From contig MNYK01000025.1 of the NCBI GenBank assembly GCA_001873115.1, forward strand, positions 1 to 49,332: a stretch of DNA of 49,332 nucleotides. The letters are read 5' to 3'. The notes beneath the pieces were generated by a model. The model worked only from the letters and a program-made list of their open reading frames with translations, did not search any database and was not told the DNA's origin. Below are positions 4,390 to 17,409 of the stretch, one piece after another. The DNA comes from Desulfobacterales bacterium CG2_30_60_27 (lineage in GTDB: Bacteria > Desulfobacterota > Desulfobulbia > Desulfobulbales > CG2-30-60-27). Positions within the stretch are counted from its first letter, which is position 1, and every line of letters begins with the position of its first letter. Position numbers and translations under genes: made by a program.

Positions 4390-5297
4390 GCATGGCGCCG
4401 CTCGTCGCCGGCCTGCGCATCGACGTGGACACCCTGCGCGGCACCCGCCTGGGGGTGCCTGCCCTGGTGCGCCTCCTCGACCAGGCCGGTATCCAGGCCA
4501 GCTTCTTTTTCTCGGTGGGGCCGGACAACATGGGCCGCCACCTTTGGCGGCTGCTGCGGCCGAGCTTTCTCATGAAGATGCTGCGCACCCGGGCGGCCAG
4601 CCTCTACGGCTGGGATATCCTTTGGAAAGGCACCCTGTGGCCGGGGCCTGGCATTGGCCAACACGCCGCCGAGCAGATCCGGCAGGCGGCGGCCGCCGGC
4701 CATGAAATCGGCCTGCATGCCTGGGACCACCATGGCTGGCAGACACGAATCGCCGGCCTGGACCAGGCCGCCGTGACGCGGGAACTGCGGCGCGGCTGGG
4801 AACGGCTGGCCGGGATCATCGGCCGCCTGCCGGACTCTGCCGCGGCCCCGGCCTGGCGCATCACCGACGCGGCCCTGGCCGCCCGCGAGGCCTTCCCCTG
4901 CCGCTACAACTCCGACTGCCGGGGCCGCTCCGCCTTTTACCCGGTGGTGAACGGCCGCCCCTTAAGCCAGTTGCAGATCCCCACCACCCTGCCCACCTAT
5001 GACGAACTGATCGGCGCCAGTGTTACGCCCGAGACCTACAACGACTATCTGCTCGGCCTCTTCCAACCGGGGCGACTGAACGTGCTGACCATCCACGCCG
5101 AGGTTGAGGGGTTGAGCTGCCAGGCGCTGTTCCGCGATTTTCTGGCCAAGGCCAAGGGGCGCGGCATCGGCTTTGCGCCGCTAGGCGATCTGGCGGCGGC
5201 TGTCAAGAATGCCCCGGTGGCCGGCATAGGCCGCGGCGCCGTGGCCGGCCGGGAGGGCTGGCTCGCCTGCCAGCAGGAGAATACCGACTTGCCATGA
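4386..5297 (+). CDS. arnD: Undecaprenyl-P-Ara4FN deformylase
   Basis: [37 protein letters not shown]; operon position. Confidence 0.93.
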
Positions 5298-6970
5298 CCA
5301 CCCAAAGAACCCTGCCTCTGCTGACCCTGGCCCTCTTTGTCCTCATCTACCTGGTGCCACTCGGCGCCCGGCCGCTGTTCGTGCCCGACGAGGCCCGCTA
5401 CGGCGAGATCGCCCGGGAGATGATCGCCGACCACGACTGGGTGGTGCCCCATCTGAACGGCCTGCGCTATTTTGAAAAGCCGGTCCTGGGCTACTGGCTG
5501 CATGCCGGCTCGATTATGCTCTTCGGGGAGAACACCTTTGCCATCCGCCTGCCGTCGGCCGCGGCCGTTGGCCTCTCCGCCCTCATGATCTTTCTGCTGG
5601 TGCGCCGCATCTTCCGGACAAACGAACCGGAGAAAGGCTGGCAGGCCGCGATGGCCGCCCTTGCCTTTCTCGTCTGTTTCGAGGTCTTCGGGGTGGGCAC
5701 CTTCAGCGTGCTCGACAGCATGCTCGCCCTCTTCCTCACCGCCACCATGACCGCCTTTTTCCTGGCCACCGCGGCCCGGCCCGGTTCACGCCGGGAAAGG
5801 CTTATGCTCCTGCTGGCCGGCCTCTCCTGCGGCCTGGCCTTTCTCACCAAGGGCTTTCTCGCCCTGGCCGTACCAGTGCTGGCCATCGTCCCCTACCTGA
5901 TCTGGCAGCGGCGCCTTGCCGACCTGCCACGCCTGGCCTGGCTGCCTCTGGCCACGGCCATAGCGGTGGCCCTGCCGTGGAGCATCCTCATCCATCTTCG
6001 CGAGCCGGATTTCTGGCATTTCTTCTTCTGGAATGAACATGTGCGCCGCTTTCTCTCGCCCAGCGCCCAACACCAGGAATCCTTCTGGTTCTACTTCCTG
6101 GCCGCACCGGCCATGTTCCTGCCGTGGACCTTCCTGATCCCGGCCGCGGCCAGTGGGGTAAAAAACAACCTGAAGAATCATGCCGCAAGCGCCGATCTCC
6201 TCCGTTACTGCCTGTGCTGGGCCATCTTCCCCTTTCTCTTCTTTTCCGCCTCCAGCGGTAAACTGCTGACCTATATCCTGCCCTGCTTCCCGCCCTTTGC
6301 CATCCTTATGGCCCTGGGGCTGGCCCATACCCTGAACCAGGGCCGCGCCCGCGCCTTCCGCCATGGCGCAGGCCTGATGGGCCTTGTCTCTGGCCTGCTG
6401 CTAGCCACCCTCATCTTTCTGCAATTTTTCGGCTACCACCACCTGCTGCCTTACAGCCGCACCTGGAAATGGCTGATGCTGGCCAACGGCCTGGCGGTGA
6501 TGCTGCTCTGCTGCCTGCTGGCGCTCCGCAGTCGGGAACCCGCCTGGAAAATGGTGGGCCTGGCCCTGGCCCCGGCTCTGCTCTTCCTAAGCCTGCCAGC
6601 CATCATGCCGGACCCGCTGCTGGTAGCCAAGGCCCCGGCCGCTCTGCTGCAGCGCCATAACCAGGACCTCGGGCCGGATACCCTCCTCATCGTCGACGAG
6701 GAGATCATGCCGGCCGTGAACTGGACCTTTGCGCAGAATAACGCCTATCTCCTGGAAAACCCCGGCGAGGTGGGCTATGGCCTGGGGTATGCCGACGCCA
6801 AGGGTAGGTTGTTGGACCTGGCCGGCGCCCGCCACCTGATCGAGCAGAACCCGGGCCGCGTCGTCCTCGTGGCCCGGGGCCGCAACTACCGGCGCTGGGC
6901 CCCAAGCCTGCCGGCCCCGGTGCTGGCGGATAACAACGGCCCAGCGGGCTACGTGTTTGTAAAATATTAG
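5294..6970 (+). CDS. arnT: Lipid A 4-amino-4-deoxy-L-arabinose transferase (GT83)
   Basis: PDEARYGEIAREM, YFEKP, AFLTKG, KLLTYILP; polytopic membrane protein. Confidence 0.93.
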   Translation: MTTQRTLPLLTLALFVLIYLVPLGARPLFVPDEARYGEIAREMIADHDWVVPHLNGLRYFEKPVLGYWLHAGSIMLFGENTFAIRLPSAAAVGLSALMIFLLVRRIFRTNEPEKGWQAAMAALAFLVCFEVFGVGTFSVLDSMLALFLTATMTAFFLATAARPGSRRERLMLLLAGLSCGLAFLTKGFLALAVPVLAIVPYLIWQRRLADLPRLAWLPLATAIAVALPWSILIHLREPDFWHFFFWNEHVRRFLSPSAQHQESFWFYFLAAPAMFLPWTFLIPAAASGVKNNLKNHAASADLLRYCLCWAIFPFLFFSASSGKLLTYILPCFPPFAILMALGLAHTLNQGRARAFRHGAGLMGLVSGLLLATLIFLQFFGYHHLLPYSRTWKWLMLANGLAVMLLCCLLALRSREPAWKMVGLALAPALLFLSLPAIMPDPLLVAKAPAALLQRHNQDLGPDTLLIVDEEIMPAVNWTFAQNNAYLLENPGEVGYGLGYADAKGRLLDLAGARHLIEQNPGRVVLVARGRNYRRWAPSLPAPVLADNNGPAGYVFVKY

Positions 6971-9761: not shown

Positions 9762-11843
9762 TTGCCCGACCGGCACACCCTGACCCTGGCCGGTAAGTGC
9801 GCCAAGGGCGATATCATCACGGTGCGTAACGCCGACAGTGGCGTGGTGCTTGGCCGGACCAGCCGGGCGGCCAGCAGCACCTCCTGGACGCTACGCATTG
9901 CCCGCCTAAGCACGGCCCCCTGCCGGGTTCGCGCCGAGGCGGGCGGTGAGTCCGCGGAAAAGGCGGTGAGCAACGCCCCCGAGGCTTGCCTCAGCCCGCC
10001 GGTTGAACCGCCCACCACGCCGCCCCCGCCCACGGCCGGGTCAGGGTCATATCAGGTGCTGGCCTTCAACGACCTGGGCATGCATTGCTATGATCGCGAC
10101 TTCTCCGTACTTTCCCTGCTGCCCCCCTTCAACGTCATCCACGCCCAAGTGGTCAAGAAGGGCGGCGAGCCGGACCTCCTGAATGACAGCCAGGTGAGCG
10201 TCTCCTACGCGGCCGTAACGGACCAGCAGGGTTCCCGCACCACCACCAGCGTTGGCAAGACCAATTTCTGGGACAATATCTACGGTCTCTTCGGCGTGAC
10301 CCGCGCGGTTGACGTGGGCATCCTGGGCGCCAAGATGCCCGGCGCCGCCAATACCCCGCAACCCATGGGCGCGTATGACCCCCAGAAGGGCTGGTTCACC
10401 GCCGCTGGCATCCCGATCACCGCCATCGACGACCAGGGCCAGACCAATGATTACCCGATGATGCGCATCACGGCCAAGGACAAGACCACCGGCACCGTGC
10501 TCGACTCCACCGATATCGTGCTGCCGGTTTCCGCCGAGATGCACTGCAGCGACTGCCATGCCAGCGGCGGCGTCGCGGCCAACAGCCAGGAAGCGGCCAA
10601 CTACGGCATTGCCGCCTGGAGCATCAAGACGGACAGCGAACAGGCCTATCGCCAGAACATTCTGATCCTGCACGATGCCAAGCACAACACCAACCTCATG
10701 GCCTCGCAGCCGGTGCTGTGCGCCTCCTGCCACTACTCACCGGCCCTCGACCTGGCCGGCGCCGGCCCCCAGGGTAATCAGCTCGGCAAACCCCTGCTCT
10801 CCGCCGTCATCCACGGCCGCCATGGCAAGACCATGGCCGGCAACCTGCCGAATACCAGCAACCCGGCCATTATTCCTGAAAACGGCACCACCTCCTGCTA
10901 TTTCTGCCATCCCGGCAGCACCACCAAGTGTCTGCGCGGCGCCATGGGTAGCGCTGGCCTGACTTGCCAGAACTGCCACGGTGGCCTGCTGGCCGTATCT
11001 GGCGCCCTCGGCGGCAACCGGACCCCCTGGGTGAACGAGCCGACCTGCCAGTCCTGCCATACCGGCGATGCCGTAAGCCACCTGGGCAGCTCGATTCGCG
11101 GCACGGTCACCTATAATCCGGCCGACCCCACCGCGACACCGCTGGTGGCCACCAACAAGCGCTTTGCCGAGGAGAGCAACACCCTGTACCGCAACAGCCG
11201 CGGTCATAGCGGCATTGCCTGCGAAAGCTGCCACGGCAGCACGCACGCCATCTGGCCGTCCCTTGAGCCCAACGACAACGTGGCCGCCACCCAGATCCAG
11301 GGCCACGCCGGAACGATCATCGAGTGCAGCGCCTGCCATGGTACCGGCCTGGCCCTGACTACCGCCGGCCCCCACGGCATGCACAACGTCAATGATAAGG
11401 CCTGGAACAAGGACCACGAGGAGTTCTATAAAAAGGATCCGCTTGCATGCCAGGCATGTCACGGTACCGATCTGCGCGGTACCGTGTTGTCACGGGCCGC
11501 GGCCGCCCGGACGCTGGCTGGTGACGACAACCAGGTCGTGTCAATAGCCAAGGGCACCCGGATCGGTTGCGGCCTCTGCCACGACAATCCGCTCACCGGC
11601 GGCTCCGACCCGGTGCCGACGCCGACGCCGACGCCAACCCCGGCCCCGGGCAGCCCGGACGGCGCCACCCTCTATACCGCCTATTGTGCGTCCTGCCACA
11701 AGGCACTGGCCACCTCCTCCAAACGGGGGGTCGGTTCCAACACCATCCAACAGGCCATCGCGGCCGACAGGGGTGGCATGGGCTCGCTCACCTTTCTGAG
11801 TACGGCCCAGATTGATGCCATTGCCTATGCCCTGTCACATTAG
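9762..11843 (+). CDS. Multiheme cytochrome c (10 CxxCH), probably 5'-truncated
   Basis: CSDCH, CASCH, CYFCH, CQNCH, CQSCH, CESCH, CSACH, CQACH, CGLCH, CASCH; NDLGMHC motif; Pro/Thr linkers; no signal peptide, start uncertain. Confidence 0.88.
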   Translation: MPDRHTLTLAGKCAKGDIITVRNADSGVVLGRTSRAASSTSWTLRIARLSTAPCRVRAEAGGESAEKAVSNAPEACLSPPVEPPTTPPPPTAGSGSYQVLAFNDLGMHCYDRDFSVLSLLPPFNVIHAQVVKKGGEPDLLNDSQVSVSYAAVTDQQGSRTTTSVGKTNFWDNIYGLFGVTRAVDVGILGAKMPGAANTPQPMGAYDPQKGWFTAAGIPITAIDDQGQTNDYPMMRITAKDKTTGTVLDSTDIVLPVSAEMHCSDCHASGGVAANSQEAANYGIAAWSIKTDSEQAYRQNILILHDAKHNTNLMASQPVLCASCHYSPALDLAGAGPQGNQLGKPLLSAVIHGRHGKTMAGNLPNTSNPAIIPENGTTSCYFCHPGSTTKCLRGAMGSAGLTCQNCHGGLLAVSGALGGNRTPWVNEPTCQSCHTGDAVSHLGSSIRGTVTYNPADPTATPLVATNKRFAEESNTLYRNSRGHSGIACESCHGSTHAIWPSLEPNDNVAATQIQGHAGTIIECSACHGTGLALTTAGPHGMHNVNDKAWNKDHEEFYKKDPLACQACHGTDLRGTVLSRAAAARTLAGDDNQVVSIAKGTRIGCGLCHDNPLTGGSDPVPTPTPTPTPAPGSPDGATLYTAYCASCHKALATSSKRGVGSNTIQQAIAADRGGMGSLTFLSTAQIDAIAYALSH

Positions 11844-11909: not shown

Positions 11910-12011
11910 ATTGGCAACCAGGCCGGCGCAAGGTTCTCAAGAAAGCCCTCCTCTTTTGCAAGCCGATTCTTTACAATGGGATGGGGTCAAGAGATGAGCA
12001 GGGAAAAAACC

Positions 12012-12803
12012 ATGACAAGCTGGCGGAAGACCATGCGGCTCTGGCCGCTGCTCCTGCTCTGCGGCCTGGGGCCGGCCTGCTGCCTGGCGGCGGACGCGGG
12101 CCTGCCCTTTGCCCCGGGCGAAAAACTCACCTTCCAGCTCAGGTGGGGACTGATCCCGGCCGGCAGCACCACCCTCATGGTGGCGCCTACCGAGAAAATG
12201 GACGGCGCCATGGCTCAGCACCTGGTGATGACCGCCGAGACCAATGCCTTTGTGGACGTGTTCTACAAGGTGCGGGACCGGATCGACTCCTATACCAGCG
12301 CCGATGTCAGCTATACCCTGCTGTACCGCAACCGCCAGCGGGAAGGCCACTCCAAGCGCAACGTCGTGGTCAATTTCGACTGGACCAGGATGCAGGCTGT
12401 CTTCAGCAACTTCGATGAAAAGAACGAGCCCATCGCCATTCCCCCGGGTACCCTGGATCCGCTGGCCTCGTTCTATTACGTGCGCACCCTGGTGCTGCTA
12501 CCGGGCAAGGTACTTTACCGCCCCTTGACCGACGGCAAAAAAGCGGTGATCAGCCAGGTGCGGGTTCTGGCCGAGGAGGAGGTCACGGTGCCGGCCGGCA
12601 CCTTCCAAACCATCCGCTTTGAGCCGGACCTGTCCGAGGCCGGCGGGGTGTTTGAAAAGAGCAAAGATGCCGGGATGACCGTCTGGGTGACCGCCGACCG
12701 CCGTCACATCCCGGTGAAGATCACCAGCAAGGTGGTGGTCGGCCATTTCACCGGTGAACTGCTAAGCATGGAAGGGGTTCAGGAACTCCCGGCCGCCCCG
12801 TAA
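12012..12803 (+). CDS. DUF3108-family exported protein
   Basis: Signal peptide then PFAPGEKLTFQLRWG, VTVPAGTF, VWVTADRRHIPVKI; alternative starts 11976/11994. Confidence 0.8.
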   Translation: MTSWRKTMRLWPLLLLCGLGPACCLAADAGLPFAPGEKLTFQLRWGLIPAGSTTLMVAPTEKMDGAMAQHLVMTAETNAFVDVFYKVRDRIDSYTSADVSYTLLYRNRQREGHSKRNVVVNFDWTRMQAVFSNFDEKNEPIAIPPGTLDPLASFYYVRTLVLLPGKVLYRPLTDGKKAVISQVRVLAEEEVTVPAGTFQTIRFEPDLSEAGGVFEKSKDAGMTVWVTADRRHIPVKITSKVVVGHFTGELLSMEGVQELPAAP

Positions 12804-13777
12804 GCCAGCGCGGCCCAAGCCAACTCCTGCCGCACCATTTCCCGGAGCTCCAAGGGCGCCAACACCCGGGCCCCGGCCCCCCAGGAGAGCACCCAGCGCA
12901 TCACCTCCCTGAGGTTGGTGGCCGGGAAGCTCAGTTCCGCGCCGCCGTCGGCCATGGCGGTCAAAACCTGTCTGACATGCCACTGCCGTTCGGCCGCGTA
13001 CGGGGCGGTGGGCTTGTCGAAGCGCAGCCGCACCCGAAATTCCTGGTCGCCGCCGAAAATACCGAAGCGATTCTCCAGCAATTTTTCCGCGTCAAAATTC
13101 TTGGGTATGGCAAAGGTGCGCGACTGCATCTCGGCCCGGCGGATGCGCGACAGGGCAAAAGTGCGCTGCGCCTCGCGCAGATGACAGTAGGCCAGCAGAT
13201 ACCATTCACCCCGGTGCCGCACGACATGGAAGGGATCGACGTTACGCACCACCGCCTTGTCCGCCCCTGGTTTCTGATAGAGGATGATCAGACCGCGGTT
13301 CTTGGCAAGGGCCGCGGCCACCGTGTCCCAAATTGCCGGCACGATGCTGGTCTCGGGTTCCTGGGTAACGGACAGCCGGGTGTCCACCCAGGCGGGCTGC
13401 ACCGATACCTTGTCGGGCAGGGAGGACTCGATCTTGCGAAACACCTGGGCCAACTGGCGGTGAATGGGGGTATTCTCATAGTGGGCCAGGGCCTTTTCCG
13501 CGATACAGATGGCGAACAGGTCGCTCTCGTTCAAGGTGATGGCCGGCAGGGCGTAACTCTCCTCGGTATATAGATAGCCATGCCGGGCGCCATCGTAGTC
13601 AATGGGCGCGTCCCGCTGATTCTTGAGAAAGTCGATGTCCCGGAGGATGGTCTTGCTGCTCACCTCGTAGTCGCGGGCCAGGGTGGCGCAGTTGACCAGC
13701 CGGCCGGCGCGCATCCCCTCGCGGATCCTCCGGTCGATGAAGATATGGCGGAGCAGTTGGTTCTTGTCCTGGGGCAT
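12779..13777 (-). CDS. WYL-domain transcriptional regulator (wHTH-WYL-WCX, PafBC/DriD-like)
   Basis: HTH LARDYEVSSKTILRDIDFL; EWYLLAYCHLREAQRTFALSRI; WCX RWVLSWGAGARVLAP; GGAGG RBS. Confidence 0.93.
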   Translation of the reverse strand: MPQDKNQLLRHIFIDRRIREGMRAGRLVNCATLARDYEVSSKTILRDIDFLKNQRDAPIDYDGARHGYLYTEESYALPAITLNESDLFAICIAEKALAHYENTPIHRQLAQVFRKIESSLPDKVSVQPAWVDTRLSVTQEPETSIVPAIWDTVAAALAKNRGLIILYQKPGADKAVVRNVDPFHVVRHRGEWYLLAYCHLREAQRTFALSRIRRAEMQSRTFAIPKNFDAEKLLENRFGIFGGDQEFRVRLRFDKPTAPYAAERQWHVRQVLTAMADGGAELSFPATNLREVMRWVLSWGAGARVLAPLELREMVRQELAWAALAYGAAGSS

Positions 13778-13805
13778 GACCAGGTCCTCCTTTTTTTATT
13801 TTGGT

Positions 13806-13826
13806 CTAGGACATCATTTGTCCCAG
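13806..13826. promoter_or_regulatory. Candidate WYL operator palindrome CTAGGACA-N5-TGTCCCAG
   Basis: Imperfect inverted repeat (core GGACA-N5-TGTCC, 13809-13823) in the 110-bp divergent spacer. Confidence 0.6.
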
Positions 13827-13887
13827 GTGCCATGATAAAAAGAAGGCAAGAGAAAGGCAACCGCTAACTCATCGCAAGGAGAACATC

Positions 13888-14124
13888 ATGATGCTCGACA
13901 GCACGGATTTTATGGAAGGATTTATCGCCGCCGCCCGCACCTTCGGACTCGATCTGGCCGCCACCCCGGAACGTGTCCTTGTCCACTGCCGGCCCCTGGC
14001 CGCCGAAACCAGCCTCTGGGCAGGCACCCACCTGACCATGGACGATTATCTGGCCATCCCGACCTTTATCCGCCAGGGGCGAGGTGTTCAGGCATGCATA
14101 GCCACCGGATTTATCGATAAATGA
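13888..14124 (+). CDS. Small hypothetical protein with FtsZ C-terminal-peptide-like motif (DDYLAIPTFIRQ)
   Basis: AAGGAG RBS, genome-like codon usage, downstream hairpin, divergent from WYL gene. Confidence 0.7.
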   Translation: MMLDSTDFMEGFIAAARTFGLDLAATPERVLVHCRPLAAETSLWAGTHLTMDDYLAIPTFIRQGRGVQACIATGFIDK

Positions 14125-14259
14125 GCCGGCCGGCCGCGGCTGTGGGGCGGTGCGGCCCCACGGCCCAGCCAGATCATGCGCGGCACCAGGGAATTTTTTG
14201 TTTGACAAACCTTTTAGTTTATAGCAATACTGACCAATCTTAAATTGATAAGTAATAAC

Positions 14260-14454
14260 GTAACTATCCAGCAGAACCGCAACCCAGGGGAGTTCCCGGA
14301 CTGGAAATGCTTTTCGCGGGTTCGTCCGCAACCGGGCGCAGGATGCGCAGGAGGTCGCGGACGCCTCGGAGGCGGGCAGGACGCCCGCCGAGAATGAGCG
14401 AAAAGTATTTTCAGTCCGGGAACGATTGACTGCCGACACAAGCTGAATAGTTAC
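14260..14454 (+). mobile_element. 195-bp MITE-like element with GGA hairpins
   Basis: TIR GTAACTATCCAGC / GCTGAATAGTTAC; flanked by GTAATAAC direct repeat (14252-14259, 14455-14462); near-identical to 38282-38476. Confidence 0.9.
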
Positions 14455-14583
14455 GTAATAACGTGAATTGATAATTCCTCACTCCGCAAATTCCCCAATC
14501 GAAAATTACTGAATCGATAACTGCGTTAGAGGTTCCCCTTTAATCCGGGGACATTGTTGTCAATTTCATCTGGGGGAGACACC

Positions 14584-17409
14584 ATGGAGAAGGCGGCACG
14601 GCAATTGCTTGCGCTTGGCACCGCGTGTATGATCGGACTTACGACTACGCTAACCGGCTGTAGTAGTGGGGGCGGTGGCGATGTGGCGGCAACGTCCAGC
14701 GACACCAATGCCAACGGCGAGGTTCTCTCGAGCCTGTCCACCGGTTTTACACTGCCGGCCGAGCTTTCGGCCGTACCCGCCTCCAGCGTGCAAGGCGCCG
14801 GGGTGGCAAGCGCGGACAAAATCACCAAAACCGTTTCCTTTGCCGCCGCGCTCAGGCGCGTGGCCTCGGCGGCGGCGGACCTGCCCTCGACCTCTGATTA
14901 TGCCCAGACCACGGGCGCTAAATACGTTGAAGAGCCGGCCCTCGACCGCTTTGCGATTATCGAGCAGGTCTTGAAGGCGGTCGGTCAGACCAGGTATGCC
15001 GACGCCGCCAACATCAACAACGGTCCCTACAAGGCCATGATTGCCTGGGCCGATGAAAAAAATGGCGTGCAGGTCAAGACCCTGGAGCCCTGGGTCGTCG
15101 ACTCCCGCATGATCGTCATCGACGGCCAGGACGTCAACCGCGTCCTCGCCTGGATCGAGGAGTCCGACTCCGAGGCCCCGGACGGCATCAGCCTGGTCAA
15201 GGCGGAATTCAAGATCTACCAGGCCGCCACCCTGGACGTGGACGGTAAAATTCTCGATTACGGCAAGTGGGAGTTGAACGTCAAGTTCTCCGAGGACGGC
15301 ACCGACTTCTTCGTGGCCACCTGCGAGCCGAATCCGGATGGCGGTTCCATCATCAAGGTGAACGAGCACGAGGAGATGGGCAACGGCACCGAGGGCATGA
15401 AGGGCGTGCTCTACCGGGCCGGGACCACTGGCTACGGCAAGGTGCAGTATACCGACTGGGAAGGGGTTGACTGGCAGTCCTGCGGCGAAAACTGCACGCC
15501 GGAGACGCCCACCGCCCAATACGCCTATAATGAAAACTATCTGGGCAGCCAAAAAACCGGGGCTGATCCGGTCTACAAGGACCGCAACAACAGCTATGAG
15601 ATGACCCATAACTACGGGTTGTTCTATGACGAGAATCCGCCCGACGGCGTTACGGCCGGCGATGACGTGAAAAAGCACAACCAGTTCGGTTTCCCGTTGA
15701 CCTATACCAATACCGACGGCCACAAGAGCTTTGCCTATTACGGCGCCTGGCAGGGCCGCCATCAGATCTGGGCGGGCGGCGGCGACGGCCAGGGCGTGCC
15801 GGCCGGCACCACGGTAACCAAGGAGGCCTGGGGCGCCGGGGTTCCCGAGACCTTCACCGTGGCCGACAGCCTGCAGGGCACCTTCACCAAGCGGACCTAT
15901 GTGGACGCCAGCCTGGCCGACATCGTCAACGTGCCGGTCGAGACCTGGCTCAACAAAAACTTTGCCCTGTTCTACAACGACAGCAACAATTGGCAACAGT
16001 GTGAAAACGGCTGGGTTGAGATGGTTCCGCCGAATCCGCCTGAACCGCCGAGTCCGCCGATCTGCCGTGATCATAATGGCGAGGTAAAGGAGTTTACCCC
16101 CTACACCCCGGGCCCGGAACTCATCGTCTCCCTGGAAGACCGCAAGAATGTCAACATCGACCAGTGGGACAACGAGACGCACATGCAAAAGAGGTATGTC
16201 TATCTGAACGATGCTGCTGCGCCCAGCGGGGAAGGTTTCGGGGAAGGTTTCTATGAGGCCATGCAAGGGCAGAACGGCAAGATGGTGGCCGCTGAGCCGG
16301 CCGTTAAATACAGCCCCGCACCGGGCGACCAGCTTAATATCAACATGGGCGGCTCCATCTACATCGCCTATACCGGTCAGTTCGCCGGGACCACCGGCTG
16401 GGTGCAGAAGGAGCTGACCAGCTTCGACAACCAGAACTGGCGGCCCGTTTTCGGGACCAACGATACCCCCTTCACCCCGGAGCTGGGCCGGGAATATTAC
16501 ATGAACAGCAACGGCGTAAACTATGTGGTCAAGCGTAAGGCCATAGACAACGTGGCCAACTCCTACGACGTGTTGCTGGAGGTGCAGACCACGGCCAACC
16601 CGGCCAACTGCACCGCTAGCGACTGCTCAAAAATCCTGCCCGCCGCGGCCGACTACCTGCGCACCCCCTGGGATATGACCGTGCGCTATGCCCTGGTGAC
16701 CGATGCCGCTGACCCGAACTACCTGCTGCTCACCTATCTTACCGACGACCCGAACACCCCGACGGTTGAGACGGGAACGGTATACCAACAGGGCGGCTGG
16801 GGGCTGCAGGCCTGGAGCACCAATGCCACCGAGACGACGGATAACGACTATCCCATCGACGCCGACGGCAATCAAGTGGCGGTTGACGACTACGGCATGC
16901 CGACCGGCGGCATCCGCCCGGTGGAATTCAACTGGGAATACTCCGCCTCCGGCGGCTAGGGCGCGCAGCAGTATCTGCTCGATGGTGACGGGAACTACGT
17001 GATTCTCGCCAATCCGATCATGCTGGAGCAGATTACCGTCGCCACCAATGTCCCCGACGTGACCAAGAACCTGCTGCTGCAATTCGACGGCTGGATGCAC
17101 GGCCTGCCGGACATGCATGATGCCCTGAAGCAGGCGGATTGGGACATCAGCAACATCTGGGAAAAGATCATCAACATCCCGGCCGGCACCGCGGTTACCG
17201 ATAGCAACGGCATCGGCTACTACATCAAACCGCTGGAAACCAGCATCTTCCTGGCGGTTGTCCCTGCTGACACCGCTGGCCTGCCGGACCTCACCCGGGC
17301 CGACAGCATTAATCTGGACACCGACGTCCCGACCTTCACCGAGCATGGCATGGGCGATAAGCCTGATATCAGCACGGTGAAATATTCCGAGGGCGTGCTG
17401 GTGGAGTAA
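14584..17409 (+). pseudogene. Large putative surface lipoprotein interrupted by one in-frame TAG (16957-16959)
   Basis: GGGGAG RBS, lipobox LTGC; ORFs 14554-16959 and 16999-17409 share a frame with only the TAG between them. Confidence 0.75.

What the first reader, a model, noticed from the sequence alone, without database searches (positions are those of the whole stretch)
12779..14170. WYL regulator divergent from a small protein carrying an FtsZ C-terminal-peptide mimic: candidate damage-inducible division-inhibitor module
Seen: a wHTH-WYL-WCX gene faces away from a stand-alone 78-aa ORF with a good RBS and a downstream hairpin; the ORF contains MDDYLAIPTFIRQG. Established: the FtsZ tail (E. 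coli DYLDIPAFLRKQ) docks FtsA, ZipA, MinC and ClpX; WYL regulators DriD and PafBC sense single-stranded nucleic acid and activate SOS-independent genes, and DriD induces the small division inhibitor DidA. Inference: this protein may be an inducible decoy that competes with FtsZ for its membrane anchors. The motif lies about 14 aa from the C-terminus rather than at it, and short motifs can match by chance.
Basis: partly seen in the sequence, partly recalled or inferred. Interest (0 to 1): 0.85.

Follow-up and report, generated by a model that had tools for sequence, protein, structure and literature searches.

The report
WYL-controlled FtsZ-tail mimic small protein
A sulfur-cycling groundwater bacterium carries a conserved gene pair, a stress-sensing regulator and a tiny protein that copies the docking tail of the cell-division protein FtsZ, which probably lets the cell pause division on demand, though nobody has tested this.

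Summary
A wHTH-WYL-WCX gene (12779-13777, minus strand) lies 110 bp from a 78-aa ORF (13888-14124, plus strand) that has no Pfam or NCBIfam hit.

- **Family:** the ORF belongs to a family of soluble 37-113-aa proteins. It was found in 51 of 201 sampled genomes of the order (record titles: Desulfocapsa, Desulfurivibrionaceae, Desulfobulbaceae).
- **Conserved core:** this is the C-terminal peptide (E/D)xYLx(I/V)PT(F/Y)(I/L)RxG(K/R)x(I/L). Synonymous codon changes show selection at the protein level.
- **Likeness to FtsZ:** a profile-profile comparison with 30 FtsZ tails of the order gives 95% probability (score 39.0; best of 101 controls 13.2). A one-sided tail HMM was not significant (E = 12).
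- **Docking model:** a co-fold places residues 55-73 in the FtsZ-tail pocket of FtsA subdomain 2B (ipSAE 0.68, best control 0.00). A like complex is solved, so this may reflect memory.
- **Synteny:** an intact WYL gene is adjacent and divergent in 45 of 51 genomes. A conserved GGAC-N7-GTCC palindrome sits over the -35 position, as at DriD promoters.

Best reading (about 0.5): an inducible decoy that competes with FtsZ for FtsA. Induction, binding and filamentation are untested. The putative regulon shows no repair genes.

The parts
12779..13777 (-). wHTH-WYL-WCX regulator, 332 aa, DriD/PafBC type
   Evidence: ORF. Pfam WYL 9e-21, WCX 2e-18, HTH_11 below cut-off. [quoted passage not shown] It is the only copy in the genome by tblastn at 1e-3.
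13806..13826 (.). Operator-like palindrome; core GGACA-N5-TGTCC at 13809-13823, which equals GGAC-N7-GTCC
   Evidence: Most conserved block of the intergenic alignment of 18 loci. Same GAC-N7-GTC geometry with an A+T-rich centre as the DriD box ATACGAC-N7-GTCGTAT (paper passages). Four sites with at most 1 mismatch in the genome, none with 2.
13833..13841 (+). Extended -10-like element TGATAAAAA for the small gene, 9 nt after the palindrome. The palindrome therefore lies where a -35 would be.
   Evidence: Conserved as TGATAnnCT/TGATATGG at the same 9-nt spacing in related loci and in the other sites of this genome. Position read from the sequence. No transcription start was mapped.
13832..13860 (-). 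Promoter-like site for the WYL gene: TTGCCT, 17 nt, TATCAT. Its inferred start falls at the edge of the palindrome.
   Evidence: Consensus scan, 9 of 12 matches. Function is inferred.
13873..13878 (+). Ribosome-binding site AAGGAG
   Evidence: Sequence. GGAG/GGAGG sits at the same place in homologous loci.
13888..14124 (+). 78-aa soluble small protein of the FtsZ-tail mimic family
   Evidence: ORF. Homologues. No 19-residue hydrophobic segment in 0 of 46 members. AlphaFold2 mean pLDDT 67, pTM 0.28, so no globular fold.
13900..13941 (+). N-terminal helix (residues 5-18) carrying the second conserved motif, F-x-(E/A)-G-F-(I/M/L)-A-A
   Evidence: Helix 5-18, block pLDDT 83. Conserved in most members but replaced in a 'YW' subgroup. 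Partner unknown. It is not in the modelled FtsA interface.
14029..14079 (+). FtsZ C-terminal-peptide-like motif HLTMDDYLAIPTFIRQG (residues 48-64)
   Evidence: hhalign aligns it to the FtsZ tail SFVDEDTLDRPTFLRKN: probability 95.4%, score 39.0, against 10.9 reversed and a maximum of 13.2 in 100 permutations. Invariant amino acids are encoded by 3-6 different codons across 35 distinct DNA versions.
14080..14106 (+). Extension beyond the FtsZ-like core (residues 65-73; family consensus G-(K/R)-x-(I/L))
   Evidence: Residues 65-70 and 72-73 are part of the modelled FtsA interface. Conserved in the family. FtsZ tails of the order end three residues after the R-(R/K) pair.
14138..14165 (+). G+C-rich hairpin after the stop codon; not a canonical terminator
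   Evidence: z = -1.03. Not called.

Best explanation
This is a two-gene checkpoint-like module of Desulfobulbales.

1. The DriD/PafBC-type WYL regulator binds the GGAC-N7-GTCC palindrome that occupies the -35 position of the small gene's promoter. When its WYL domain is loaded with a stress ligand, most likely single-stranded DNA, it recruits RNA polymerase and switches on the small gene. This step is inferred.
2. The product is a soluble, largely disordered protein. Its conserved C-terminal peptide copies the C-terminal docking peptide of FtsZ.
3. The peptide occupies the FtsZ-tail pocket on subdomain 2B of FtsA. This step is modelled, not measured. FtsA is the only known FtsZ-tail receptor found in this genome.
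4. Occupying that pocket keeps FtsZ filaments from being tethered and organised at the membrane, so division is delayed until the signal fades. This step is inferred.

The conserved G-(K/R)-x-(I/L) extension may add contacts that let a monomer compete with polymeric FtsZ. The conserved N-terminal helix has an unknown second role, such as oligomerisation or binding another partner.
For: **A real, translated family**
- 42 small-protein representatives (57-106 aa) in a profile search of 1.84 billion proteins.
- Found in 51 of 201 sampled genomes of the order, after removing one hit that is FtsZ's own tail.
- Synonymous codon variation over invariant residues.
- Conserved ribosome-binding site.

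**Likeness to the FtsZ tail**
- hhalign of the family against 30 FtsZ tails gives 95.4%, score 39.0. Controls: reversed 10.9; 100 column permutations with maximum 13.2.
- In an unbiased six-frame genome search, the family profile hit the FtsZ tail itself in G027 (E = 9e-5).
- One member beside a WYL gene reads LLDRPTYLRRG, like the order's FtsZ LDRPTFLRR.

**FtsA docking model**
- ipSAE median 0.68 (runs 0.68, 0.65, 0.74); best of 3 controls 0.00.
- That mark was reached by 58 of 80 solved complexes and 2 of 110 mismatched pairs.
- Runs agree in at least 66% of contacts. Partner pLDDT is 48-54.
- The interface is FtsA residues 233-246, 266 and 289-303. Host numbering equals enterobacterial numbering up to residue 311.
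- This matches the pocket at 234-245 and 294-304 reported for the E. coli FtsZ tail and the Pichoff-Lutkenhaus mutants (passages).

**Precedent**
- Free FtsZ C-terminal fragments 354-383 inhibit E. coli growth (same passages).

**Other receptors and inhibitors**
- No MinC, SepF, ZipA, ZapD, SulA or LexA DNA-binding domain was found in the 93%-complete genome.

**Regulator**
- Intact, adjacent and divergent in 45 of 51 genomes.
- Start-to-start spacing is 106-117 nt in most loci.
- Conserved palindrome plus -10 element.
- DriD and PafBC are the closest solved structures.
- 7 of 10 DriD ssDNA-contact positions are kept.
- DriD boxes overlap the -35 position. driD is divergent from the zeocin-induced small gene CCNA_03891 (passages).
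- WYL activators drive the small division inhibitors DidA and AciT.
Against: - **Weak one-sided test.** An HMM of 29 FtsZ tails (17 aa) ranked the ORF only 12th of 45,651 six-frame ORFs (E = 12, 7.2 bits). The family profile did not hit the host's own FtsZ at E <= 10.
- **Motif differences.** The order's FtsZ has R/T/E where the mimic has I/V, and ends in NES/NEN, which the mimic lacks. In the window protein the motif is 14 residues from the end.
- **The co-fold may pass by memory.** The partner's fold is uncertain (pLDDT under 50 in two runs).
- **Avidity.** Recalled rather than tested here: FtsZ tails bind partners weakly and work through polymer avidity, so a monomeric decoy would need high levels or extra affinity.
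- **No repair genes in the putative regulon.** The three other operator sites precede ORF6N/Bro-N genes, a 76-aa ORF next to an IS110, and nothing clear.
- **ssDNA contacts not fully kept.** Three of ten DriD ssDNA contacts (R176, K202, R207) are V, A and A here.
- **Different cargo in other families.** Orthologous regulators with the same operator drive other genes, so the regulator is not specific to division.
- **Members without a nearby regulator.** Three of 51 genomes have the small gene with no WYL gene nearby. The long-form paralogue of this genome could not be assessed.
Confidence: 0.5

Rival explanations
1. Localisation tag rather than decoy. The FtsZ-like peptide only brings the small protein to FtsA at the division site. 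The conserved N-terminal helix is the active part, acting on another divisome or envelope component, either positively or negatively.
For: - Two separately conserved blocks joined by a variable disordered linker.
- Only residues 55-73 touch FtsA in the model, which leaves the helix free.
- In many Desulfurivibrionaceae-type loci the gene after the WYL gene encodes a SPOR + NlpC/P60 septal-wall-type hydrolase.
Against: - The N-terminal motif is dispensable in evolution. A 'YW' subgroup and very short members (37-60 aa) keep only the C-terminal peptide and the WYL link.
- hhalign of the family against FtsA gives nothing (probability 0.07%). That tests sequence likeness only.
- The SPOR gene is absent from the window, and its conservation may be shared ancestry.
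Confidence: 0.15
2. Same effector, different trigger. The module is a phage- or mobile-element-responsive growth-arrest or defence cassette. The WYL regulator senses infection-derived nucleic acid, as BrxR/CapW-type WYL regulators of defence islands do, rather than chromosomal damage.
For: - In G015 a Septu system (PtuA 7e-187, PtuB 5e-70) sits between the WYL gene and the small gene, on the WYL strand.
- In a sister family the same promoter drives an ARPP-1 domain protein (3e-16).
- The other operator sites in this genome precede ORF6N/Bro-N genes typical of mobile elements.
- PADLOC's CRISPR-associated WYL models match the regulator (3e-39).
Against: - The closest solved relatives are the damage-response activators PafBC and DriD. 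The next-weakest solved WYL protein (7tb5), whose identity I did not check, scores only 7e-4.
- No family member was found on viral contigs (0 of 25 pattern matches confirmed).
- The window's neighbours are housekeeping-type genes (cytochrome, DUF3108).
- The small protein has no PADLOC or PHROG hit.
- The Septu case is one genome.
Confidence: 0.15
3. The peptide is not an FtsA ligand. It may be a short linear motif for another partner, for instance feedback on the WYL regulator itself or a ClpX-type recognition tag. Its likeness to the FtsZ tail would then be convergent or irrelevant.
For: - The one-sided HMM test was not significant.
- The family-specific features, Y before L and the G-(K/R)-x-(I/L) extension, are absent from housekeeping FtsZ tails.
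- Tight genetic linkage to the regulator would also fit a regulator-binding peptide.
Against: - The profile-profile match is far above controls.
- The FtsA model passes with all three controls at 0.00 and lands in the known pocket.
- An FtsZ paralogue in G011 has a tail that reads STPAFLRRGKSL, so the RRGK-x-L extension also occurs on a true FtsZ-family tail (one case).
Confidence: 0.15
4. Chance ORF or untranslated leader in a divergent promoter region.
For: The protein is short, with no database family and low model confidence.
Against: - Conserved reading frame, ribosome-binding site and amino-acid motif across 55 loci, with synonymous variation.
- Family E-values down to 1e-24.
Confidence: 0.02

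Closest known systems
DriD and its targets in Caulobacter crescentus: didA, and the divergent CCNA_03891/CCNA_01149 operon
   Same: - wHTH-WYL-WCX homodimer-type regulator.
- Palindromic box with GAC-N7-GTC geometry and an A+T-rich centre, lying over the -35 position at a fixed distance from the -10.
- The regulator gene is divergent from a small gene of unknown function that it activates, without activating itself (passages).
- A small division inhibitor belongs to its regulon (abstracts and passages).
   Different: - DidA is described as acting on the late divisome protein FtsN (passage). That DidA is membrane-bound is recalled.
- The protein here is soluble and mimics FtsZ's tail.
- Half-site letters differ (GGAC against CGAC).
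- No recA, recJ or dnaG-type targets were found.
- The sequence of CCNA_03891 was not available to me, so homology or analogy is untested.
DdaA (WYL) and AciT in Acinetobacter
   Same: A WYL activator switches on a small division inhibitor in species that lack LexA and SulA (abstract and passages). Here too, neither a LexA DNA-binding domain nor SulA was found.
   Different: - AciT is membrane-anchored and its mechanism is unknown (passages).
- The paper text holds no occurrence of the word 'divergent', so a divergent arrangement is not reported there.
- The effector here is soluble, with a recognisable docking peptide.
FtsZ conserved C-terminal peptide, and synthetic FtsZ C-terminal fragments
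   Same: - Core (D/E)-x-x-L-x-x-P-T-F-(L/I)-R preceded by a disordered linker.
- Modelled in the same FtsA 2B pocket.
- Free fragments 354-383 of E. coli FtsZ are dominant-negative in vivo (passages of the FragFold preprint).
   Different: - This is a natural stand-alone gene under its own regulator, not a fragment.
- It has Y-L and I/V where the order's FtsZ has x-L and R/T/E.
- It carries a conserved G-(K/R)-x-(I/L) extension and an unrelated N-terminal helix.
- The motif is not at the extreme C-terminus.
Protein inhibitors of FtsZ: SulA, MciZ, phage Kil, MinC, SlmA
   Same: Small or regulatory proteins that stop Z-ring function. MinC and SlmA use the FtsZ tail as a handle (titles and abstracts; the rest is recalled).
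   Different: - Those bind FtsZ itself. The protein here is proposed to imitate FtsZ and bind its partner.
- It has no SulA Pfam match.
PafBC of actinobacteria
   Same: Best-scoring solved relative (6sj9, 4e-15). It is an ssDNA-activated WYL activator of a LexA-independent damage response, acting at promoters without a -35 (passages).
   Different: - PafBC is a heterodimer of two WYL proteins, binds a non-palindromic site at -26, and needs RNA polymerase to bind (passages).
- Here there is one gene and a palindromic site.

Membership tests
DriD/PafBC-type WYL transcription activators | Domain order wHTH, WYL, WCX | tested here: met
   Pfam WYL 9e-21 and WCX 2e-18. HTH_11 scores 21.1 bits, below its cut-off of 25.
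DriD/PafBC-type WYL transcription activators | Sequence relationship to the solved activators | tested here: met
   PafBC 6sj9 at 4e-15. The Caulobacter WYL proteins 7u02/7tzv/8tp8/9pfq, which I take to be DriD (7tzv and 9pfq are named as DriD complexes in the paper), at about 1e-13. PafB/PafC 7p5x at 1e-10.
DriD/PafBC-type WYL transcription activators | ssDNA-contact residues of the WYL/linker/WCX pocket (DriD Y168, R176, R178, Y192, K202, R204, W206, R207, Y240, R288) | tested here: inconclusive
   From the HMMER pairwise alignment and the residue list in the paper, the window protein has Y167, V176, R178, Y193, A203, R205, F207, A208, F241 and R290. Seven of ten are kept or aromatic-equivalent; three are lost.
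DriD/PafBC-type WYL transcription activators | Palindromic operator over the -35 of the target promoter at a fixed distance from the -10 | tested here: met
   GGAC-N7-GTCC is conserved in the aligned loci, 9 nt before a TGnTAnnnT element. The DriD geometry comes from paper passages. Binding itself was not tested.
DriD/PafBC-type WYL transcription activators | ssDNA-dependent activation of transcription | not testable with these tools
   Needs EMSA, a reporter, or RT-qPCR.
FtsZ C-terminal peptide (as a mimic, not as an FtsZ) | Core motif (D/E)-x-x-L-x-x-P-x-F-(L/I)-R after a disordered linker | tested here: met
   hhalign 95.4% against controls. A one-sided HMM gave E = 12.
FtsZ C-terminal peptide (as a mimic, not as an FtsZ) | Position at the extreme C-terminus | tested here: not met
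   There are 14 residues after G64 in the window protein, and 3-8 in most members. P0042 ends right after the motif.
FtsZ C-terminal peptide (as a mimic, not as an FtsZ) | Binds the 2B pocket of FtsA | tested here: inconclusive
   Prediction only: ipSAE 0.68 against 0.00. The interface at 233-246 and 289-303 matches the published pocket. The pass may come from likeness to a solved complex.
FtsZ/tubulin family | GTPase domain | tested here: not met
   No Pfam hit, 78 aa. The genome's FtsZ is on another contig.
WYL-activated small division inhibitors (DidA, AciT) | Membrane anchor | tested here: not met
   None of 46 members has a 19-residue window with mean Kyte-Doolittle hydropathy of 1.6 or more.
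WYL-activated small division inhibitors (DidA, AciT) | Sequence homology to DidA or AciT | not tested
WYL-activated small division inhibitors (DidA, AciT) | Induced by DNA damage through the WYL regulator, and blocks division | not testable with these tools
   Only synteny, the operator and a docking model are available.
SulA | SulA domain (PF03846) | tested here: not met
   No Pfam hit for the small protein. None in the genome either.

The most novel reading that the evidence does not exclude
This would be the first natural, chromosomally encoded division inhibitor that works by molecular mimicry of FtsZ's docking tail. It is a regulated, soluble decoy for FtsA.

It would sit in a modular WYL 'checkpoint cassette'. 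The promoter and operator of that cassette are kept across the order, while the effector is swapped between lineages:
- the FtsZ-tail mimic;
- small transmembrane proteins;
- an ARPP-1 protein;
- in one genome, a Septu defence system inserted at the same promoter.

The uncharacterised DriD-activated gene CCNA_03891 of Caulobacter may hold the same position.
Probability: 0.4. Interest if true: 0.85.

Novelty: new variant of a known kind. Interest (0 to 1): 0.76.

Why it matters
WYL regulators that sense single-stranded DNA are emerging as the LexA-independent route to damage responses. Their small effectors, DidA and AciT, are poorly understood.

This effector's likely target and binding site can be read from its sequence. 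That makes the mechanism directly testable with a peptide, FtsA and a point mutant.

If it holds, three things follow:
- Cells would be shown to regulate division by titrating FtsZ's membrane anchor with a tail copy. So far this has been seen only with artificial FtsZ fragments.
- The decoy would provide a natural peptide scaffold, with an affinity-adding extension, for the FtsA pocket.
- WYL promoters would be shown to be exchangeable sockets for growth-arrest and defence effectors.

The earlier notes of this scan on other DNA (FtsZ-tail copies on phage and other proteins, and WYL-linked second FtsZ genes) suggest the theme is wider than this one order.

Tried and rejected
- **FtsZ-tail HMM.** An HMM of 29 tails against the genome's 45,651 six-frame ORFs ranked the small ORF 12th (E = 12). 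It is not significant on its own.
- **Long hits of the profile search.** I read four of the five:
  - P0009 is a repeat adhesin with LNNYLDVPTNI.
  - P0018 and P0038 have about 15 ITLEQYLQIP repeats without the TF-x-R half.
  - P0031 is an unrelated repeat protein.
  - P0034 I did not read.
  None was counted as family.
- **Chance hit.** L008 (G043) is a chance match.
- **Family libraries.** Pfam, NCBIfam, PHROGs, PADLOC and the ESM Atlas gave no family for the small protein.
- **Alignment too diverse.** The search for related loci with the 46-row alignment failed because it had no conserved stretch. I used the 12-row alignment instead.
- **Viral contigs.** None of the 25 pattern matches was confirmed.
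- **Second FtsZ genes.** The FtsZ paralogues of G011, G016 and G028 are not next to a relative of this WYL gene. The WYL-second-FtsZ pairing noted earlier in the scan is therefore not seen in this order.
- **hhalign against FtsA.** Nothing found.
- **RNA evidence.** One aquifer metatranscriptome run (X24, held as contigs, 90-95% alike, so from a relative) has a 305-nt contig over 13831-14078. It has the same 44-nt linker gap as the same-genus homologue P0003. Other pieces lie over the WYL gene. Contigs cannot show a start, a strand or a level, and DNA may be present in the library. This is only a weak hint that a relative's gene is present in RNA.
- **Rfam.** The scan of 13600-14800 gave only a sub-threshold microRNA-family match.
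- **CCNA_03891.** I could not obtain its sequence. Only two versions of one paper mention it, and supplements are closed.


Full report
**What is in the window**

One search lists a 332-aa ORF at 12779-13777 on the minus strand and a 78-aa ORF at 13888-14124 on the plus strand.
- The 332-aa protein has WYL (9e-21) and WCX (2e-18) domains and a sub-threshold HTH_11.
- The 78-aa protein has no Pfam or NCBIfam match.
- The small ORF starts 9 nt after an AAGGAG.
- It contains MDDYLAIPTFIRQG at residues 51-64, with 14 residues after it.
- The hairpin after the stop codon is real (11 bp, 14138-14165). It is unremarkable in energy (z = -1.03) and is not followed directly by a U-run.

**The small ORF belongs to a real protein family**

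- A word-based search gave four close homologues of 63-71% identity. In them DDYLAIPTF-RQG and an N-terminal block DF-EGFIAAARTFGLDL are invariant.
- A six-frame search of 61 related genomes found more distant members of 37-75 aa.
- A profile of 12 sequences, searched against 1.84 billion representatives, found 47 proteins at E <= 0.001. Of these, 42 are small (57-106 aa).
- I read four of the five long hits. They are repeat proteins that share only part of the motif. The fifth, P0034, I did not read.

Across 46 members the architecture is as follows:
- an N-terminal F-x-(E/A/Q)-G-F-(M/L/I)-(A/T)-A motif, replaced by a 'YW' motif in one subgroup;
- a variable linker of 20-45 residues;
- the best-conserved block, (E/D)-x-Y-L-x-(I/V)-P-T-(F/Y)-(I/L)-R-x-G-(K/R)-x-(I/L), ending 3-8 residues before the C-terminus in most members.

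Further properties:
- Over 55 loci there are 35 distinct DNA versions of the motif. Invariant L, P, R and G are written with 3, 3, 6 and 4 different codons. Selection therefore acts on the protein.
- None of the 46 members has a hydrophobic segment.
- AlphaFold2 gives a helix at residues 5-18, a mostly unstructured middle, a short helix at 51-55 and no globular fold (mean pLDDT 67, pTM 0.28).

**Is the motif an FtsZ tail copy?**

The genome's FtsZ ends in FVDEDTLDRPTFLRKNES. Thirty FtsZ tails of the order read F-D-E-(D/E)-x-L-(D/E)-(R/T/E)-P-T-F-(L/I/M)-R-(R/K)-N-E-(S/N). I ran three tests.
- **One-sided HMM.** An HMM of 29 tails, run over all 45,651 six-frame ORFs of the genome, ranked the small ORF 12th at E = 12. 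This is not significant. The family profile did not reach the host FtsZ at E <= 10 either.
- **Profile against profile.** hhalign of the 46-member family against the 30 tails aligned HLTMDDYLAIPTFIRQG with SFVDEDTLDRPTFLRKN at 95.4% probability and score 39.0. The reversed family scored 10.9. One hundred column permutations averaged 6.9 (sd 1.6, maximum 13.2).
- **Unbiased genome search.** In the six-frame search of 201 genomes, the family profile picked up one FtsZ tail itself (G027, tail PLDEDFLDIPTFMRKNEN, E = 9e-5).

Two further observations:
- One family member next to a WYL gene reads LLDRPTYLRRG, the order's own FtsZ version.
- A post-hoc strict pattern occurs only in FtsZ and in this ORF in the whole genome.

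I conclude that the likeness is real at the family level but too short to be proven from one sequence.

**Docking model**

No MinC, SepF, ZipA or ZapD was found in the genome, which is 93% complete. FtsA, encoded beside ftsZ, is therefore the one known tail receptor present.

I co-folded FtsA residues 1-388 (alignment of 21) with the small protein (alignment of 46). Results:
- ipSAE was 0.68, 0.65 and 0.74 in three runs (median 0.68). The best of three controls was 0.00.
- That mark was reached by 58 of 80 solved complexes and by 2 of 110 mismatched pairs.
- The runs share at least 66% of contacts. Partner pLDDT is 48-54.
- The confident interface is small-protein residues 55-73 with FtsA residues 233-246, 266 and 289-303.

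Host FtsA aligns without gaps to enterobacterial FtsA over residues 3-311, so the numbering is the same. Passages of the FragFold preprint place the E. coli FtsZ tail at FtsA 234-245 and 294-304, in the pocket defined by the Pichoff-Lutkenhaus mutants. They also report that free FtsZ fragments 354-383 inhibit growth in vivo.

The model therefore treats the motif as an FtsZ tail. The tool warns that such a pass may come from likeness to a solved complex. It shows likeness, not binding.

**The regulator and the shared promoter**

In an evenly drawn sample of 201 genomes of the order, 52 had a profile hit. One of these is the FtsZ tail mentioned above, which leaves 51 genomes (22 of 67 genera).

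Taking the best hit of each genome:

| Arrangement of the WYL gene | Genomes |
|---|---|
| Intact, next door, on the other strand (two cut by contig ends) | 45 of 51 |
| Adjacent but fragmentary (G059) | 1 |
| Only residues 1-45 remain (G177) | 1 |
| 2.7 kb away, with a Septu system in between (G015) | 1 |
| None nearby (G004, G024, G036) | 3 |

The genomes are related, so these are not independent events. The pattern-based collections agree but overlap with this sample:
- 18 of 20 genome-collection loci have the WYL gene.
- 22 of 27 metagenome loci have it. One more has a remnant, three are too short to judge, and one has none in the 500 nt available.

Features of the promoter region:
- The distance from the WYL start codon to the small-gene start codon is 106-117 nt in most loci.
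- Its best-conserved element is the palindrome AGGTA-GGACA-N5-TGTCC-TACCT, followed after 9 nt by TGATAnnCT.
- In the window the core is at 13809-13823 and the -10-like element at 13833-13841. The palindrome therefore covers the -35 position of the small gene's promoter.
- A promoter-like site for the WYL gene (TTGCCT, 17 nt, TATCAT; 13860-13832) would start transcription at the edge of the palindrome.

Comparison with known WYL activators:
- The closest solved proteins are PafBC and the Caulobacter WYL proteins I take to be DriD.
- Seven of ten DriD ssDNA-contact positions are kept.
- Paper passages give the DriD box as ATACGAC-N7-GTCGTAT with an A+T-rich centre.
- The box lies over the -35 position at a fixed distance from the -10.
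- driD is divergent from CCNA_03891, a gene of unknown function. DriD switches that gene on after zeocin without regulating itself.

The arrangement here is the same in every respect that can be read from sequence.

**What argues for caution about the trigger**

The extended operator occurs four times in the genome with at most one mismatch. It occurs never with two mismatches and 11 times with three. The three other sites precede:
- a run of three ORF6N genes plus a Bro-N gene;
- a 76-aa ORF next to an IS110 transposase;
- nothing I could name.

None is a repair gene. No LexA DNA-binding domain and no SulA were found.

Orthologues of the regulator are more widespread than the small protein. 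Hits at E <= 1e-40 occur in 117 of 201 genomes, and these include paralogues. In families where the small protein was not found, the same operator and -10 drive other first genes:
- small proteins with an N-terminal transmembrane helix and an RRRLWNDS-x-FDCYS motif in one family;
- a roughly 170-aa ARPP-1 domain protein in another (3e-16).

In G015, PtuA and PtuB of a Septu defence system lie between the WYL gene and the small gene.

The regulator and promoter thus behave as a socket with exchangeable cargo. Phage or other stress is a live alternative to DNA damage as the trigger.

**Comparison with what is known, and novelty**

- WYL activators that induce small division inhibitors are known: DriD with DidA, and DdaA with AciT.
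- AciT is described as membrane-anchored with an unknown mechanism. DidA is described as acting on FtsN (passages).
- The protein here is soluble and carries a recognisable copy of FtsZ's docking peptide.
- Three full-text searches for a natural FtsZ-tail decoy found none. That covers only the held library.
- Earlier unchecked notes of this scan report FtsZ-tail copies on phage and other proteins, and WYL-linked second FtsZ genes in other genomes. I tested the second of these and did not see it in this order.

I class the finding as a new variant of a known kind: a DriD-type module with a new class of effector. Nothing has been tested at the bench.

**Verdict**

- I am about 90% sure that the module is real and conserved and that the small gene is translated.
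- Its core is an FtsZ-tail-like peptide.
- I put the full mechanism, an inducible FtsA decoy that delays division, at about 0.5.
- The main rivals are a localisation-tag role, a defence trigger, and a different binding partner.

Noticed in passing
G000 contig C154:7379-7720 (locus L067) and C44:402-641 (locus L068): The same genome holds a 113-aa long-form paralogue. It has an extra helical region and ends in YDDYLDVPTYFRQGRK plus 12 residues. A truncated copy lies beside an ISL3-like transposase fragment. The long form (also P0043, P0050 and L129) is not next to a WYL gene where that could be judged. C154 ends 406 nt upstream of the gene, so it could not be judged there.
   Followed up: partly
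G000 C133:8659, C22:23925, C141:2313 (loci L166-L168): Three more copies of the operator plus -10 module, making up a putative regulon. C133 precedes three ORF6N-domain genes (one broken) and a Bro-N gene. C22 precedes a 76-aa ORF and an IS110 transposase. C141 has no clear gene. C22 and C141 share the transcribed start GTGATCAG-AAA.
   Followed up: partly
Loci L150, L152, L153, L155, L157 (one family of the order); L146-L149, L165 (another): Orthologous WYL genes with the same operator are divergent from different cargo. One family has small proteins of 57-151 aa with an N-terminal transmembrane helix and a conserved RRRLWNDS-x-FDCYS motif. The other has roughly 170-aa ARPP-1 domain proteins. 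The small membrane proteins resemble in type, but not demonstrably in sequence, known damage-induced division inhibitors.
   Followed up: partly
Locus L013 (G015:C66) 4543-6830: A Septu defence system (PtuA 7e-187, PtuB 5e-70) is inserted between the WYL gene and the small gene, on the WYL strand.
   Followed up: yes
Locus L020:4122-4889 and the equivalent place in many Desulfurivibrionaceae-type loci: The gene after the WYL gene on the same strand encodes a SPOR + NlpC/P60 protein, a septal-peptidoglycan-binding type of hydrolase. After the small gene come DUF3391 + HD-GYP and PilZ genes. None of these is in the window.
   Followed up: partly
Locus L070 (G011:C45), FtsZ paralogue of 429 aa: A second FtsZ (about 42% identical to the housekeeping one) ends in STPAFLRRGKSLPTTVP. 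It carries the RRGK-x-L extension typical of the small-protein family. It is not next to a WYL gene.
   Followed up: no
window 14202-14497: In a groundwater DNA run this stretch has a contig word depth of 265-966, against 5.7 for its surroundings, so it is a repeat or widely shared element. A promoter-like TTGACA-18-AATACT lies at 14202-14231. There is no Rfam family above threshold.
   Followed up: partly
window 9762-11843, 11976-12803, 14554-16959: The neighbours are a multihaem cytochrome (MtrC/MtrF-like, cytochrome c7/c3 and cbb3-type domains), a DUF3108 protein, and an 801-aa protein without a Pfam family that is also next to the module in the same-genus relative (L017).
   Followed up: no
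Proteins P0018 (940 aa) and P0038 (754 aa) from the profile search: Large proteins with about 15 tandem repeats of roughly 33 residues containing ITLEQYLQIP. This is half of the motif without the TF-x-R part. Their origin and role are unknown.
   Followed up: no
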